From assembly GCA_965204045.1 (NCBI GenBank), contig CBDBDW010000002.1, positions 3,139,730-3,203,729 of the forward strand: DNA of 64,000 nucleotides, given 5' to 3'. Under the pieces are notes generated by a model. The model saw nothing but the letters and a program-made list of their open reading frames with translations. It ran no database searches and was not told where the DNA came from. Positions 17,168 through 23,016 of the stretch are shown here, piece after piece; position 1 is the stretch's first letter, and the number at the start of each line of letters is the position of its first letter. Source of the DNA: Gammaproteobacteria bacterium. GTDB taxonomy: Bacteria; Pseudomonadota; Gammaproteobacteria; Eutrophobiales; Eutrophobiaceae. The translations under genes were made by a program, and so were the position numbers.

Positions 17168-17362
17168 CTATACATAACGACACAAATAGCGCCGCATTAT
17201 GTTGTTTCCAGCTTATAACATGACGGGCAAACATCGCCTCCTGTTCGTCATTCCGGGCCTGACCCGGAATCCAGTCAAAACAAACATTCCTTATAAGGAG
17301 TCTTGTCATCTACTGGATTCCGGGTCAGGCCCGGAATGACGACATAAACAGTGCGGCGTTAT
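17168..17362. repeat. Palindromic REP/BIME-like intergenic element, copy A (two inverted cattccgggcctgacccggaatcc hairpins around a 40-bp spacer, flanked by acgacaNaaaNagNgcggcRttat repeats)
   Basis: Shares ctatacRtaacgacacaaatMgcgcc ... gttcgtcattcc[GC-rich 10-11 nt]ggaatccagt ... actggattcc[..]ggaatgac architecture with copy B at 20059-20170. Confidence 0.6.
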
Positions 17363-18763: not shown

Positions 18764-20058
18764 TTCTATAAGGAACCTCTATTAATTCAGTGTAATGATA
18801 TAATACGGAGTACTGATTTCAACCCATACTGTCCTGTTTGAGGGTGCTGCCATGAAGAAGACTCAAGACCTGTTCGGTTCCTTTTTTGACTTGCAGGACG
18901 CCCGTTTGACGAAGCTGAAAGACCCGCTGGTGCAGTTGGAGGAGGTGGTGGACTGGGCGGCATTCCGTCCGTTGCTGTCCCGTCTCCGGCCCACGGAGCG
19001 CAAGAGCAATGCGGGCGCCCCGCGCCGGGACGAGGTACTGATGTTCAAGGGGTTGGTGATACAGCACTTGTACGGCTTGAGTGATGAGCAGTTGGAGTAC
19101 CAGGTAGAGGACCGGCGCAGTTTCCAGCGGTTCCTGGGGTTGGACAATGTCCATCGGGCGCCGGATGCGAAGACGTTCCGGGCGTTTCGGGAGCAGTTGG
19201 TGCGGTTGGGCCTGATGGAGGCGTTGTTCGAGCAGTTTGCCGGGCAGTTGGAAGCGTTGGGGTACCGGGCGCGCAAGGGGCAGTTGGTGGATGCGTCCCT
19301 GGTGCCGGCGCCGGTGCAGCGCAACACGCGCGAAGAGAATGCCAAGGTCAAGGCCGGGGAAGTGCCTGCGGACTGGGAGCAGGCGGACGCCAAGCCGAAG
19401 CGGCGTCAGAAGGACGTGGAGGCGCGTTGGACGAAGAAACGCGGCACGAGTCATTACGGGTACAAGAACCACGTGAACGTGGACAATGCGCACAAGCTGG
19501 TACGCAAGTATGATGTCACCGCGGCCAACGTGCATGATTCGCAGTTATTGGATGACCTGCTTGATGAGGACAACAGCAGCAAGGCCCTCTGGGCGGACAG
19601 CGCCTACCGGTCTGAAGAGCAGGAGCAGCGTTTGCGGGAGAAGCACTACCGCAGTCACATTCAGCGCAAGGGCAGCCGCAACCGGCCGTTGACGGCGCGG
19701 GAGCAGCAGGGCAACCGCACGCGGGCAAAAATACGGGTGCGGGTGGAGCACGTGTTCGGGGCGCAGTGTGCGACCCGTGCCAAGCTGGTCCGGTGTATCG
19801 GGCTCAAGCGCAGTGCGTTGGCCATCGGGATGATGAACCTGGTGTACAACATGCGCAGACTGTGTTACCTGCAAGGGGTCGGTGCGCCTGCTTGACGGGA
19901 AACAGGGATAAAACGGTGTCAAAACGACACCTGAGGGCGATAAAACGGCCCGATGACGGGCGTATTGAGGTGATGCGGGTCTCTGCGCACCTTACTATAG
20001 ACAAATATATGAAAAAGGAACCTGCTCAGACCTGAAATTATCAATTAATAGAGGTTCC
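18764..20058 (+). mobile_element. IS5-family insertion sequence (about 1.29 kb) with 17-bp terminal IRs and probable 4-bp TATA target duplication; inserted 16 bp upstream of the aminotransferase start codon
   Basis: IRL aggaacctctattaatt (18764-18780) vs reverse complement of 20042-20058 gggaacctctattaatt; flanking tata at 18760-18763 and 20059-20062. Confidence 0.75.
18852..19895 (+). CDS. IS5-family DDE transposase
   Basis: 347 aa; HVNVDNAHKLVRKYDVTAANVHDS and LWADSAYRSEEQ motifs typical of IS5-family Tnp. Confidence 0.85.
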   Translation: MKKTQDLFGSFFDLQDARLTKLKDPLVQLEEVVDWAAFRPLLSRLRPTERKSNAGAPRRDEVLMFKGLVIQHLYGLSDEQLEYQVEDRRSFQRFLGLDNVHRAPDAKTFRAFREQLVRLGLMEALFEQFAGQLEALGYRARKGQLVDASLVPAPVQRNTREENAKVKAGEVPADWEQADAKPKRRQKDVEARWTKKRGTSHYGYKNHVNVDNAHKLVRKYDVTAANVHDSQLLDDLLDEDNSSKALWADSAYRSEEQEQRLREKHYRSHIQRKGSRNRPLTAREQQGNRTRAKIRVRVEHVFGAQCATRAKLVRCIGLKRSALAIGMMNLVYNMRRLCYLQGVGAPA

Positions 20059-20170
20059 CTATACGTAACGACACAAATCGCGCCACGTTCGTCATTCCCG
20101 CGCAGGCGGGAATCCAGTAAGCAAACATTCATTATAAGGAGTTTTGTTGTCCACTGGATTCCCGCCTGCG
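20059..20170. repeat. Palindromic REP/BIME-like element copy B (left part); its right arm is split by the IS110-type element and resumes at 21582
   Basis: ctatacgtaacgacacaaatcgcgcc ... gttcgtcattcccgcgcaggcgggaatccagt ... actggattcccgcctgcgc | IS | gggaatgacgaac. Confidence 0.6.
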
Positions 20171-20253
20171 CCGATGTGTGGACTCCTCCCCCCTTATCAT
20201 GGTAGTTAAGGGGGGAGAAGCAATTTTGTTTAACCAACAACGAGGAGTCCACG

Positions 20254-21327
20254 ATGAGAGATACTAACACAATCGGCATAGATTTAGCGAAGCACACGTT
20301 TCAGGTGTGCGTGGTCGACAAGCAGGACCGGATGGTGAGCAACCAGGCGATGGGCCGGACGGCGTTGTCGGCGTATTTAGTGCGTCAGGCGCCGGCCTTG
20401 GTGGTACTGGAGGCGTGCGGGGGTGCGCACTATTGGGGTCGCTTAGCGGAGTCGTTCGGTCATCAGGTGAAGATTCTCTCGCCGCGTTGGGTGTTGCCGT
20501 ACCGTCAGGGCCACAAGACGGATGCGCGGGATGCGTTAGCGGTGGCCCGTGCGGGGCAGCGGGAGGAATTGCCGGGGGTGGGGTTGATGGGGGTGGAGCA
20601 ACAGAGTCTGCAGTGTCAGAAACGCGTGGCGGAGCATCTGACGGACCAATTGACGGCGACGGGGAACATGCTGCGTGGGCTGCTGGCGGAGTTTGGGGAA
20701 GTGGTGCCGAAGGGGGAGGCGGCGTTACGGCGTGAGTTGCCGCGCGTGCTGGAGGAGGCGGAGAACGGGTTGCCGTTGTCGCTACGCCCGCTCTTGGCGC
20801 TGGCCTGGCAGTTATGGCAGGCGCAGTCGGCGGCGTTGCAGGAGGCGGAGCGGCAGTTGGCAGAGCAAGTGCGCGTGACGCCGGCGTGTCGGTCGCTGCT
20901 GACACTGGCCGGGGTGGGGCCCAAGAATGCGTTGGGGTTGTATATTGCCCTGGGGGACGGGCAGGCGTACCGGCATGGTCGGGCCGCGGCGGCCTGTATT
21001 GGCTTGACCCCCAAGCAGCACAGCAGTGGGGGCAAGGTGCGCCTGGGGTCGATTGGCAAGCGCAGCGGGGACAAACGCTTACGTGCCTCGCTCATTACCG
21101 GCGCCCATGCGGTACTCCAGGCGCTGGCGCGGCGGGAACCCCGTAATGACGTTGAGGTGTGGCTCAAAGACCTGGCGGCCCGGCGTGGCGCCGGGCGGGC
21201 GGCGGTGGCCCTGGCAAACAAAACCGTGCGTACCGCCTGGGCTATGCTGCGTTACCGGACGGAGTACGATCCGGGCCATGCCAACCAGCTGTCGGGCAAC
21301 CCGCCGGCGGCAGTGGCCGCCGCCTGA
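20254..21327 (+). CDS. IS110-family DEDD transposase/recombinase
   Basis: 357 aa; N-terminal IGIDLAKHTFQVCVV (DEDD RuvC-like) and C-terminal LLTLAGVGPKNALGLYIALGDG ... GLTPKQHSSGGKVRLGSIGKRSGDKRLR (Transposase_20). Confidence 0.9.
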   Translation: MRDTNTIGIDLAKHTFQVCVVDKQDRMVSNQAMGRTALSAYLVRQAPALVVLEACGGAHYWGRLAESFGHQVKILSPRWVLPYRQGHKTDARDALAVARAGQREELPGVGLMGVEQQSLQCQKRVAEHLTDQLTATGNMLRGLLAEFGEVVPKGEAALRRELPRVLEEAENGLPLSLRPLLALAWQLWQAQSAALQEAERQLAEQVRVTPACRSLLTLAGVGPKNALGLYIALGDGQAYRHGRAAAACIGLTPKQHSSGGKVRLGSIGKRSGDKRLRASLITGAHAVLQALARREPRNDVEVWLKDLAARRGAGRAAVALANKTVRTAWAMLRYRTEYDPGHANQLSGNPPAAVAAA

Positions 21328-21581
21328 ACGGCCAGCCGGGAGAGAGGCGTCAGCGTTTATGTTATTTCCTTGCAAGACGGCACAACGTGATAGTGGTCAG
21401 ACCCACCTTCAGGGACCCTGCTCATTCCCGCGGCGTGAGAACGCCGTTGCGCCGAAGAGGGCTGAAGGGGCGAACACATCTTGGGCCAGGGGTCGCACCC
21501 CAATCAGAGTCCGTATATACGACCGCAGTCTGCCTTCACTATCGATTCGTGCCTACTTGCAAAACGGGAGGAGTCCATATA
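21328..21581 (+). ncRNA. Candidate guide (seekRNA/bridge-RNA-like) non-coding region in the IS110/IS1111-type right end
   Basis: About 250 bp non-coding between recombinase stop and element end, with GGCGTgagaACGCC hairpin and a tcattcccgcggcg stretch resembling the target flank gtcattccc|ggcgcagg; inference only. Confidence 0.35.
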
Positions 21582-23016
21582 GGGAATGACGAACGGGGGC
21601 GGGAATGACGAACCATACGGGACACAGCCTTTTCAGAACCTGAACGTATGACCCAGCCTGACCGTGACCTGCGTCTGGTCCGCATCGAAGTGGCCGGGGA
21701 AATTGTTGCTTTTCATATCTGCAGTCTGGCCTACCGCGATAAAGACTTCTGTTTCCGGCCGGGGAAACCAGCGATACCTGGCCGAAAATGAAAACCGCTC
21801 CGAAATATTGTCGTACTGCATCTGGGTATCAATCTGCATGTCGGGCGTGAAATTGATGCTGCTGTCCAGTGAGCCGATGTGAACCGTCAGCTTCCCCGAC
21901 GGCATTTCAAATTTTTCCATATTGTGCTTGGCCGTCAAGCGGAAGTATTTGGACAGCCTGAACTCCAGGATAGTATTCAGACCCAGGTAGTCTCCATCGT
22001 ATATACGGCAACAGGTAACTTCGACATCTGCAATCAGCTTTCTTGAGTTGGAAGAATTCAGCAGAACGTAAAACTGGTTGAAATGGTAATCCCCCAGAGG
22101 TACGGGAAGCTCTCCGGCTATCAGGAAGGGTTGATTGATAACCTCCCGTAAATTGCTGGCTTGAACCTTGATTTCATCTCCGATTCGATTCCGGCCCCCG
22201 GTTAACAGGGATAATTTATGGGTCTCTATGTTATTATCCAGGTCGGTAACAACATTGCCTATCACGCCTCCTTCCAACCATTGAATCCAGCCGTCCCCAA
22301 ACCGCTTTCTCCTGACATAGTCCCCGTTGTAATCCCGGATGTTACGGCGGTTGACAAATCCCAGGGCAGGATCAAACCGTTTTCCTATCTCCTTGCCGCT
22401 GATATACCAGCGCAGAAAATCGTGCGGGTATCCCAGAAAAAACCCGAACATGTCATCGTCCTTTCCCGCAGCCGGCCCATGCACGTCGTTTGAAAAACTG
22501 CGCTGGTAAAAAAAATCAGCGAGAAACCGGCCCCGGTTGAATAAATCGGAGTTCCGGTATTTGAAGTCGACGCCTGCCAGCGTATTCCTGCCCGTGCCGT
22601 CCGGGTCGCCATGCGTCAAAATCGTGCCGATGCGCGATTCTTCAAGCACTTCTGCAGACAACCGGGCGACGCTGAGGGTCTCTGCATTGATATTTTCCGA
22701 ATTATCCATTCTTACACTCAGCGCGCCCACGTTGAGGTTTCCAATGCGCCCGGATAATTTCCCGCCTGCGATGAGATCCACGATCTCATCATCCACGATG
22801 CCGATCTTGCGGGTAAAGAACGGCAATCCGTTGATGGCCGTGAGCGGCGGAGTCATCGCCCTGCCCCCGAACTCGAAGATTGTCCTGTCCTGGAGAAAGA
22901 AGTCCCTGGTCTCCGGAAAAAACAGTGAGAACCGGCCCGTGTTAACCTGCCGTTCGTCGAGTGGAGAATCCGAAAAATCCGTATTAAGGACTCTGATCGA
23001 TATTAAATTTCCAACT

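What the first reader, a model, noticed from the sequence alone, without database searches (positions are those of the whole stretch)
20059..21614. IS110/IS1111-type element inserted precisely in the arm of a palindromic REP-like element, with a candidate guide RNA region
Removing 20171-21581 restores actggattcccgcctgcgc+gggaatgac, the reverse complement of the element's left arm (gtcattcccgcgcaggcgggaatccagt). Copy A (17168-17362) shows the uninterrupted architecture. The element has 12-bp subterminal IRs (gtggactcctcc / ggaggagtccat), a short 5' leader and an about 250-bp non-coding 3' region. That layout is described for IS1111-group elements, whose guide (seek/bridge-type) RNA is encoded downstream of the recombinase. 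The 3' region contains ctgctcattcccgcggcg, which resembles the target-site flank gtcattccc|ggcgcagg, as a target-specifying guide would. IS110-family members are known to target REP-type palindromes.
Basis: partly seen in the sequence, partly recalled or inferred. Interest (0 to 1): 0.7.

Follow-up and report, generated by a model that had tools for sequence, protein, structure and literature searches.

The report
RNA-guided IS1111-type insertion sequence in REP hairpin
This is an intact 1,410-bp insertion sequence of the IS1111 group sitting at a precise spot in a repeated DNA hairpin, and its non-coding tail encodes a two-loop guide RNA matching that spot and the element's own ends; this kind of system was described in 2024, so it is a clean new example, not a new kind.

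Summary
Removing it restores a perfect 28-nt complement of the left arm.

The ORF (20254-21327) is a DEDD IS110-family transposase. The element has subterminal inverted repeats, no target duplication, an 82-bp leader and a 254-bp 3' non-coding region.

A conserved RNA of about 139 nt (21396-21534) has six helices with abundant compensatory changes. A covariance model built only from relatives with at most 53% protein identity finds this one site in 64 kb (E 6e-27).

One internal loop carries CTCATTCCC, the complement of the right flank, and GTTGCGCCG, the left flank plus CG. A second loop carries AACACATC and GTATATACG, which match the left and right ends of the element.

Across about 80 relatives these positions track each element's own flanks (0 of 20,000 permutations). 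Four relatives with 55-82% protein identity sit at the same position (within 1 nt) of similar hairpins.

All of this matches published IS1111 seekRNA/bridge RNA biology and known REP targeting, so it is a new member of a known kind. RNA expression and activity were not tested.

The parts
20059..20171 (+). Left part of REP-like composite palindrome 'copy B'. It comprises a leader, the intact left-arm hairpin (20091-20118, core ATTCCCGCGCAGGCGGGAAT at 20094-20113), a spacer, and the first 19 nt of the right arm (20153-20171). Its last bases, CTGCGC, are the left target half-site.
   Evidence: (I4: 20100-20118 with 20153-20171, 19 nt, 100% complementary).
20091..20105 (-). Unoccupied perfect copy of the target (CTGCGC|GGGAATGAC) on the opposite strand, in the left arm.
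   Evidence: the only zero-mismatch match to the restored target in the 64-kb window.
20172..21581 (+). The insertion sequence, 1,410 bp, from CGATGTG... to ...CCATATA, with no target duplication.
   Evidence: (contigs L058 and L059 end exactly at CCATATA).
20178..20189 (+). Left subterminal inverted repeat GTGGACTCCTCC. The perfect 11-bp core TGGACTCCTCC leaves a 7-bp left extension, CGATGTG.
20242..20252 (+). GAGGAGTCCAC directly before the ATG. It is an internal near-copy of the right end, contains the ribosome-binding site, and is the inverse of the left repeat.
   Evidence: GGAGTCCAYAC before the ATG in nearly all 44 relatives. The role is inferred only.
20254..21327 (+). Transposase gene, 357 aa. 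[quoted passage not shown]
   Evidence: PF01548 3.7e-13; PF02371 5.5e-16; NF033542, 268 bits against a cutoff of 140.
21396..21534 (+). Predicted guide RNA (bridge RNA / long seekRNA) with two internal-loop modules.
21406..21468 (+). Target-binding module. Outer stem CCTTCAG/CTGAAGG (21406-12 with 21462-68), stem CCCT/AGGG (21416-19 with 21458-61) and inner hairpin 21431-21446.
   Evidence: helices 1-3: every pair but one shows compensatory changes; module alone -30 kcal/mol, z -2.07.
21421..21429 (+). Right-target guide CTCATTCCC. Positions 2-9 are the exact complement of the top strand of the right flank, GGGAATGA (21582-21589).
   Evidence: cognate 6.30 of 8 against non-cognate 3.25 of 8; 0 of 20,000 permutations.
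21446..21454 (+). Left-target guide GTTGCGCCG. It equals the left flank TGCGC plus the first two bases of the element, CG, so it would pair with the bottom strand.
   Evidence: cognate 4.95 of 7 against 1.77 of 7; 0 of 20,000. L061 carries CAAGCCCG beside the flank CAAGCC|CG.
21470..21526 (+). Donor-binding module. Closing stem GCG/CGC (21470-72 with 21524-26), stem GGGC/GTCC (21483-86 with 21509-12) and hairpin GGGG-TCGCA-CCCC (21489-21501).
   Evidence: helices 4-6; register-shifted compensatory pairs seen by inspection of alignment A3.
21473..21480 (+). Right-donor guide AACACATC. ACACATC is the complement of element bases 2-8, GATGTGT.
   Evidence: all 8 loci with a GATGTGT left end carry ACACATC, and most with GATGTAT carry ATACATC. 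Only ACATC is matched in every locus.
21513..21521 (+). Left-donor guide GTATATACG. ATATACG equals the last five bases of the element plus its first two, which is the circle junction.
   Evidence: the last two bases equal the element's first two in 41 of 41 loci (CG or AG). ACATAAG goes with the end CCACATA, and CTATACG with CCCTATA.
21557..21562 (+). TTGCAA, a -35-like hexamer. In a circularised element it lies 17 nt from TA|CGAT, a -10-like hexamer formed across the junction.
   Evidence: (TTG at this fixed position in 65 of 68 relatives; junction hexamer TACGAT or TAAGAT in 35 of 35). Promoter activity was not tested.
21567..21578 (+). Right subterminal inverted repeat GGAGGAGTCCAT.
21582..21594 (+). 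Right target half-site GGGAATGACGAAC, the rest of the interrupted right arm.
   Evidence: (I7).
17168..17362 (+). REP-like composite palindrome 'copy A', uninterrupted, with the same architecture but a different hairpin sequence.
   Evidence: I1, D1, D2, D6.

Best explanation
The region holds an intact insertion sequence of the IS1111 group of the IS110 family. It carries a DEDD transposase gene and, in its 3' non-coding end, a guide RNA of about 139 nt.

The RNA has two internal loops. One loop reads the target on both strands. Its 5' side pairs with the top strand of GGGAATGA. Its 3' side pairs with the bottom strand of TGCGC plus the next two bases. The other loop reads the joined ends of the circularised element in the same two-strand way.

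The transposase-RNA complex would bring the circular element and the hairpin repeat together. It would exchange strands between ...CTGCGC and GGGAAT..., inserting in one orientation without duplicating any bases. Circularisation would also assemble a promoter across the junction.

Shown here: the anatomy, the precise insertion, the conserved RNA structure, and the match of guides to flanks and ends across relatives. Inferred from published work on related elements: that the RNA is made, binds the protein and directs recombination.
For: Anatomy and family.

Same insertion position (within 1 nt) in similar hairpins: L060 (82% protein identity), L061 (79%), L062 (61%) and L065 (55%).

RNA conservation: nhmmer matches in about 100 loci, running up to the element's right end.

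RNA structure: RNAalifold finds 17 of 18 pairs with compensatory changes. The count on my six-helix structure gives 89.9% paired against 30-45% when slid, with 0 of 500 shuffles reaching the observed values.

Independent covariance model: one hit in the window, 21396-21534, 113.4 bits, E 5.6e-27.

Guides track their own flanks: the right-target guide scores 6.30 of 8 cognate against 3.25 of 8 non-cognate, and the left-target guide 4.95 of 7 against 1.77 of 7. Both give 0 of 20,000 permutations. Among near relatives, TCATTCC changes to TCATGCC together with GGAAT to GGCAT, and TGCGCCG to CAAGCCCG with the left flank.

Donor guides track the ends and the first two bases in 41 of 41 loci.

The top-strand match lies 5' of the bottom-strand match, as reported for IS1111 seekRNAs (PMC11187229). 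The RNA lies in the right end, as reported for IS1111 bridge RNAs (PMC11208160).
Against: There are no expression or activity data. Single-sequence folding is not significant for the whole non-coding region (z -1.08) or for the donor module alone (z +1.34). No Rfam family matches.

The relatives are related by descent, so the shuffle and permutation counts overstate independence; the slid-partner control and the number of distinct guide classes (37 and 19) mitigate this.

The left-target guide has mismatches at its outer two positions, and one against the presumed original target: the guide reads CG where the target had GG. A second right half-site 19 bp downstream leaves some doubt about the history of this particular copy.
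Confidence: 0.88

Rival explanations
1. The 3' non-coding region is conserved as DNA, for example as transposase-binding sites, end-recognition sequences or promoter elements. No guide RNA is involved, and the resemblance to the target is incidental.
For: The last 25 bp or so (the subterminal repeat and the TTG box) are conserved as DNA elements. Single-sequence folding is not significant.
Against: Compensatory double changes keep six helices paired, and DNA-binding sites do not predict that. The variable positions fall exactly in two loop segments that follow each element's own flanks. Homologous regions of other IS1111 members give a transposase-bound RNA that is required for transposition (PMC11187229).
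Confidence: 0.04
2. This copy did not arrive by RNA-guided insertion here. An already interrupted repeat unit (the element plus its flanks) was moved into this palindrome by homologous recombination or gene conversion between repeat copies.
For: The right half-site GGGAATGACGAAC occurs twice (21582-94 and 21601-13). In L060 the element sits in a unit with loop CTGC, and a truncated unit follows whose loop ATGC is the true complement of the left arm. Beyond GAACG the right side of copy B does not mirror its left side.
Against: In the window the restored arm is a perfect 28-nt complement of the left arm, loop included. Downstream half-site duplication is no commoner next to these elements than at other such sites: 4 of 18 against 21 of 145, p 0.48. 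Even if true, this would change only the history of this copy, not what the element is.
Confidence: 0.08
3. The element is longer than stated. Its right end is at 21600, so GGGAATGACGAACGGGGGC belongs to it.
For: Removing 20172-21600 also restores CTGCGC+GGGAATGACGAAC.
Against: Two contigs of a 96%-identical copy stop exactly at CCATATA. All relatives share ...GGAGTCCATATA followed by unrelated, locus-specific sequence. The palindrome with the left arm is one base longer with the 21581 end (I7 against I9).
Confidence: 0.02

Closest known systems
IS1111-group elements with a 3' seekRNA: ISPa11 (targets Pseudomonas aeruginosa REP), ISEc11, ISKpn4 and ISPst6 (Siddiquee et al. 2024, PMC11187229)
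   Same: DEDD transposase of about 340-357 aa with the GL-P----SG motif. Subterminal inverted repeats with a 7-bp left extension. No target duplication. The long non-coding region lies downstream of tnp. The RNA segment matching the top strand lies 5' of the one matching the bottom strand, and the two overlap at the insertion point. Insertion is immediately 5' of a CG-type dinucleotide, as listed for ISPa11, ISKpn4 and ISPst6. The target is a folded repeat.
   Different: The nearest database proteins are unnamed: 96% identity in metagenome contigs, and at most 50% in species-representative genomes. The target is a different repeat family (GTCATTCCC...GGGAATCCAG). No experimental data exist for this element.
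Bridge RNA of IS621 and the IS110 group (Durrant et al. 2024, PMC11208160; structures 8wt6 and 9t56)
   Same: One RNA carries two internal loops, one for the target and one for the donor. Each loop reads both DNA strands. A short dinucleotide is read in both the left-target and left-donor guides. A promoter is formed at the circle junction.
   Different: Here the RNA lies in the right end, not the left. The order of guides within each loop is reversed. The subterminal repeats are long. The protein is only weakly similar (E about 1e-6, C-terminal domain only). The dinucleotide read by the right-target guide need not equal the one read by the left guides (window: GG against CG).
REP-targeting IS110-family elements ISPpu9 and ISPpu10 of Pseudomonas putida (PMC12288879; Tobes and Pareja 2006, cited in PMC11208160)
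   Same: Orientation-specific insertion at a fixed position of an extragenic palindromic repeat.
   Different: ISPpu9 moves as modules (tnp alone, RNA gene alone, or both) and forms no junction promoter. The window element is a single unit with a conserved junction-promoter arrangement.
Neisseria filamentous prophage Nf1/MDA, which integrates into dRS3 repeats through an IS110-type transposase (PMC3898611, PMC7058167)
   Same: The restored 20-bp target ATTCCCGCCTGCGCGGGAAT fits the published Nf1-subtype dRS3 consensus ATTCCCRCCTRCGCGGRAAK at all 20 positions.
   Different: Nf1 is a phage, and its integrase is described as using the conserved CT within the repeat. The window element inserts after GCGC. 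It has no phage genes next to it, and the window has no Neisseria uptake sequences.

Membership tests
IS110 family (DEDD transposases) | Transposase with the N-terminal DEDD/RuvC-like domain (PF01548) and the C-terminal PF02371 domain | tested here: met
   PF01548 E 3.7e-13 and PF02371 E 5.5e-16. NF033542 'IS110 family RNA-guided transposase', 268.4 bits against a cutoff of 140.
IS110 family (DEDD transposases) | Conserved acidic residues and the Ser-Gly of the G--P----SG motif | tested here: met
   IGID, LEAC and KTDARDA align with the ISCro4 acidic positions; GLTPKQHSSG lies at residues 250-259.
IS1111 group | Subterminal inverted repeats of 7-17 bp, with short extensions beyond them (7 bp at the left) | tested here: met
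   12-bp repeats, 11 of 12 identical. The 11-bp perfect core leaves the extension CGATGTG at the left and TATA at the right. The arrangement is conserved in relatives.
IS1111 group | The longer non-coding region lies downstream of the transposase gene | tested here: met
   254 bp downstream against 82 bp upstream.
IS1111 group | Site-specific, orientation-specific insertion without target duplication | tested here: met
   no duplicated bases. In five elements the left flank always ends the CTGGAT... side and the right flank is ...ATGACG.
IS1111 group | Transposase clusters with IS1111-type transposases in a phylogeny of named elements | not tested
Only the GL-P----SG form of the motif and the non-coding-region layout were checked.
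seekRNA / bridge RNA systems | A conserved structured RNA in the non-coding end | tested here: met
seekRNA / bridge RNA systems | [quoted passage not shown] | tested here: met
   In the window the segments are 21421-29 (top strand) and 21446-54 (bottom strand), overlapping by two bases.
seekRNA / bridge RNA systems | A second loop complementary to the donor, that is, the joined ends of the element | tested here: met
   21473-80 and 21513-21. The dinucleotide matches in 41 of 41 loci, and changes at the right end are mirrored in the loop. The ends vary little, so this rests on fewer independent changes than the target loop does.
seekRNA / bridge RNA systems | The RNA is transcribed, binds the transposase and is required for, and reprogrammes, transposition | not testable with these tools
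   No expression or functional data.
seekRNA / bridge RNA systems | A promoter assembled at the circle junction | tested here: inconclusive
   TTGCAA, 17 nt, then TA|CGAT; the TTG is conserved in 65 of 68 relatives. This is sequence-level evidence only. ISPpu9 shows that not all members use one.
REP (repetitive extragenic palindromic) elements | A short imperfect palindrome, repeated many times in intergenic regions of the genome | tested here: inconclusive
   The palindromic hairpin is confirmed. However, only two composite copies (three intact hairpins plus the interrupted one) lie in this 64-kb window, and genome-wide abundance is unknown. Similar hairpins flank relatives in other genomes.
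REP (repetitive extragenic palindromic) elements | Association with a RAYT (REP-associated tyrosine transposase) | not tested
   The window's ORFs were not screened for Y1 transposases.

The most novel reading that the evidence does not exclude
In this clade the two bases at the crossover are not a shared core as in IS621. The left-target and left-donor guides always read the element's own first two bases (41 of 41). The right-target guide reads whatever two bases the target has, even when they differ; the window has CG against GG, and 15 loci differ in all. The left junction always carries the donor's pair, and the right junction the target's.

This would mean that IS1111-type recombination needs no core identity between donor and target, and that both strands are exchanged at, or resolved to, the same position. 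That would be a mechanistic difference from the IS110-type model.

A second, softer point is that the target here is the same 20-bp hairpin that the Neisseria Nf1 phage uses. Unrelated branches of the family would then have converged on one widespread repeat, inserting at different positions in it.
Probability: 0.3. Interest if true: 0.5.

Novelty: new member of a known kind. Interest (0 to 1): 0.3.

Why it matters
For genome annotation, this settles a 1.4-kb region as an apparently intact mobile element with exact ends, and assigns four guide segments in its RNA.

The comparative set assembled here is a natural table of guide-target pairs for the less studied IS1111 branch. It holds about 80 relatives, 37 distinct right-target guides and 19 distinct left-target guides. 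No solved structure turned up for that branch.

The set could help in designing programmable recombinases. It could also test whether the crossover dinucleotide must match between donor and target.

It does not reveal a new kind of system.

Tried and rejected
Rfam. A permissive search of 19900-21800 gave nothing in the 3' region. It gave only sub-threshold matches of the hairpin repeat to Wolbachia and Francisella sRNA families.

Single-sequence folding. It gave the expected target-module shape but no significant stability, so I relied on comparative evidence instead.

Plasmid DNA search. There was no nucleotide match. At protein level there were only unnamed IS110-family genes at 46% identity or less.

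Exact-protein look-up of the window transposase. It is not on record, so the host genome and other copies in it could not be examined.

A promoter for the RNA. The consensus scan found none in the non-coding region. TTGCAA at 21370-75 has no properly spaced -10. The RNA may instead be processed from the tnp transcript, as reported for seekRNAs.

Right half-site duplication as a footprint of the element. Rejected: it is not enriched next to these elements (4 of 18 against 21 of 145, p 0.48).

A Neisseria origin, suggested by the dRS3-type target. Rejected: the window holds no uptake sequences and only one intact dRS3-pattern hairpin.

Host identity was not pursued, because it would not change the verdict.
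Full report
**1. The observation**

Reading 19900-21800 and checking by script shows an inserted block at 20172-21581 (1,410 bp). Removing it joins ACTGGATTCCCGCCTGCGC (20153-20171) to GGGAATGAC (21582-21590). The joined sequence is the exact reverse complement of the left arm GTCATTCCCGCGCAGGCGGGAATCCAGT (20091-20118). No bases are duplicated.

The subterminal repeats are real: GTGGACTCCTCC at 20178-89 and its inverse with one mismatch at 21567-78. The ORF 20254-21327 (357 aa) carries PF01548 and PF02371. It passes NCBIfam NF033542, 'IS110 family RNA-guided transposase', at 268 bits against a cutoff of 140. It also has GLTPKQHSSG at residues 250-259. The leader is 82 bp and the 3' non-coding region 254 bp.

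Copy A (17168-17362) is an uninterrupted element of the same build, with a different hairpin sequence.

**2. Boundaries and other copies**

The exact protein is not on record. A 96%-identical protein lies on two metagenome contigs of 1,417 and 1,419 bp. Both end exactly at ...GGAGGAGTCCATATA and begin (TG)CGC|CGATGTG.

Relatives with 82% and 79% protein identity on long contigs (L060, L061) are inserted at the same position (within 1 nt) of similar hairpins: CTGGATTCCGGCCTGCGC|element|CGGAATGACGG and CTGGATGCCGGGTCAAGCC|element|CGGCATGACGG. L062 and L065 (61% and 55%) do the same.

Scans of species-representative genomes and of metagenomes gave 119 further loci. About 80 of them show the right end ...GGAGTCCATATA followed by locus-specific sequence. 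This excludes the alternative right end at 21600.

**3. The RNA**

An HMM of the non-coding region from four close copies finds it in about 100 loci. The matches run from about window 21391 to the right end of the element.

I aligned 68 distinct sequences and then a thinned set of 37 (A3). RNAalifold predicts four helices, and 17 of 18 pairs show compensatory changes.

On my six-helix structure, 89.9% of cells are paired, against 30-45% when the partners are slid. There are 146 cells changed on both sides, and 0 of 500 shuffles reach any observed measure. One further four-pair helix (GGGC/GCCC) shifts register by one column in some clades. It shows GGAC/GTCC, GGCT/AGCC and GGGT/ACCC variants (inspection of A3).

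A covariance model built from 26 relatives with at most 53% protein identity, without the window or its near relatives, gives one hit in the whole window: 21396-21534 on the plus strand, full length, 113.4 bits, E 5.6e-27.

By contrast, single-sequence folding is not significant. The whole non-coding region gives z -1.08, the target module -2.07 and the donor module +1.34. Rfam has no matching family.

**4. The guides**

The first module is an internal loop closed by two stems, with an inner hairpin.

- Its 5' side (21421-29, CTCATTCCC) is the complement of the right flank GGGAATGA.
- Its 3' side (21446-54, GTTGCGCCG) is the left flank TGCGC plus CG.

Among close copies these positions change with the flanks. 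L061 has TCATGCC and CAAGCCCG beside ...CAAGCC|CGGCATGA. Across the family:

| Guide | Distinct guides | Cognate match | Non-cognate match | Permutations reaching observed |
|---|---|---|---|---|
| 5' side vs own right flank | 37 | 6.30 of 8 | 3.25 of 8 | 0 of 20,000 |
| 3' side vs own left flank | 19 | 4.95 of 7 | 1.77 of 7 | 0 of 20,000 |

 Within the clade that shares TCAT, the four variable bases still track the flank: 3.06 against 1.89 of 4, with 0 of 20,000 permutations.

The second module has the same layout but reads the element's ends.

- AACACATC (21473-80) is the complement of GATGTGT at the left end.
- GTATATACG (21513-21) is the right end ATATA plus CG.

Its last two bases equal the element's first two in 41 of 41 loci (CG or AG). 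Changes at the right end to ACATA or CTATA are mirrored in the loop.

An enterobacterial plasmid element with 41% protein identity (L124) has the same RNA, and its loops match its own flanks.

**5. Comparison with what is known**

Siddiquee et al. (PMC11187229) reported these features for IS1111-type elements:

- The long non-coding region lies downstream of tnp.
- It yields a transposase-bound seekRNA of 82-96 nt, with long forms of 148-172 nt.
- The top-strand match lies 5' of the bottom-strand match, and the two overlap at the insertion point.
- The left end carries a 7-bp extension, and no bases are duplicated on insertion.
- A promoter forms at the circle junction.
- ISPa11 targets REP sequences.

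Durrant et al. (PMC11208160) predict bridge RNAs in the right end of 93% of IS1111 elements. They describe the two-loop logic for target and donor.

The window element fits every one of these features that sequence analysis can test. It is therefore a new member of a known kind.

The junction-promoter arrangement is present: TTGCAA, then 17 nt, then TA|CGAT. The TTG is conserved in 65 of 68 relatives.

**6. The target**

The restored hairpin ATTCCCGCCTGCGCGGGAAT fits the published consensus of the Neisseria dRS3 repeat subtype used by the Nf1 filamentous phage. That phage carries an IS110-type transposase. The window has no Neisseria uptake sequences, so the repeat family is wider than Neisseria. 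Nf1 is described as using the CT inside the repeat, whereas this element inserts after GCGC.

A perfect, unoccupied target remains on the other strand, in the left arm (20091-20105).

**7. Open points**

The two bases after the insertion point are GG in the target. This follows from the palindrome and the hairpin stem. They are CG at the left end of the element. The right-target guide reads GG and the left guides read CG. Fifteen loci show this kind of split. In the six of them (window included) whose left end was also recovered, the left junction has the donor's pair and the right junction the target's.

The right half-site recurs 19 bp downstream, and similarly in L060 and others. This is not enriched next to these elements.

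Expression, protein binding and activity of the RNA are inferred, not shown.

Noticed in passing
window 20158-20171 + 21582-21587 (restored); intact inverse copy at 20094-20113: The 20-bp target hairpin ATTCCCGCCTGCGCGGGAAT fits the published Neisseria dRS3 'Nf1 subtype' consensus ATTCCCRCCTRCGCGGRAAK at all positions. That repeat is the integration site of a filamentous phage carrying an IS110-type transposase. The window has no Neisseria uptake sequences.
   Followed up: partly
window 18767-20063: An IS5-family insertion sequence lies directly against the left tip of REP-like copy B, with CTATA on both sides. It has 21-bp terminal inverted repeats at 18767-87 and 20043-63, and its ORF 18852-19895 carries PF01609 plus DUF772. 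Two unrelated insertion sequences therefore sit in or at one repeat element.
   Followed up: partly
window 20242-20252; same place in L002-L110: GGAGTCCAYAC immediately before the transposase ATG is a near-copy of the element's right end and the inverse of the left subterminal repeat. It contains the ribosome-binding site and is conserved in nearly all 44 relatives checked. It could sequester the ribosome-binding site or bind transposase; neither was tested.
   Followed up: partly
window 20172-20173 against 21582-21583; 14 other loci (e.g. L008, L062, L078, L116): The first two bases of the element (CG) and the first two of the right flank (GG) differ. The left-target and left-donor guides follow the former, and the right-target guide mostly follows the latter (8 of the 15 split loci, window included). 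This suggests no shared crossover dinucleotide is needed.
   Followed up: partly
window 21582-21594 and 21601-21613; L060, L081, L048, L047, L055, L074, L091, L066, L116: The right half-site is repeated in direct orientation 17-52 nt downstream; L074 has a tandem 21-nt array. A control shows no enrichment next to these elements (4 of 18 against 21 of 145, p 0.48), so this is probably a property of the repeat clusters.
   Followed up: yes
L023 3120-3310 and 3963-4153 (same in L087); L051 3756-3941 and 4125-4310; L042 4148-4256 and 4673-4781: Some relatives carry a second tandem copy of the RNA-plus-right-end module a few hundred bp downstream. In L023 only the outer copy's flank fits the guide. 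This recalls the modular transposition reported for ISPpu9, or cargo capture.
   Followed up: no
L124 (NZ_CP056636.1 123132-125345): A related element on a Citrobacter freundii plasmid (41% protein identity) sits directly after an IS21 istB gene. Its loop sequences CGTCAAC and CAAGATAG match its own flanks, which shows the same logic in clinical plasmids.
   Followed up: partly
window 20068-20180: The hairpin repeat gives sub-threshold Rfam matches to Francisella sRNA FtrB and Wolbachia WsnRNA46. Those 'sRNA' families may therefore include the same widespread repeat motif.
   Followed up: no
protein of window 20254-21327: The only solved structures with detectable similarity are IS110-group enzymes (IS621 8wt6, ISCro4 9t56). 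The E-values are about 1e-6 and cover the C-terminal domain only. No IS1111-group structure turned up.
   Followed up: no
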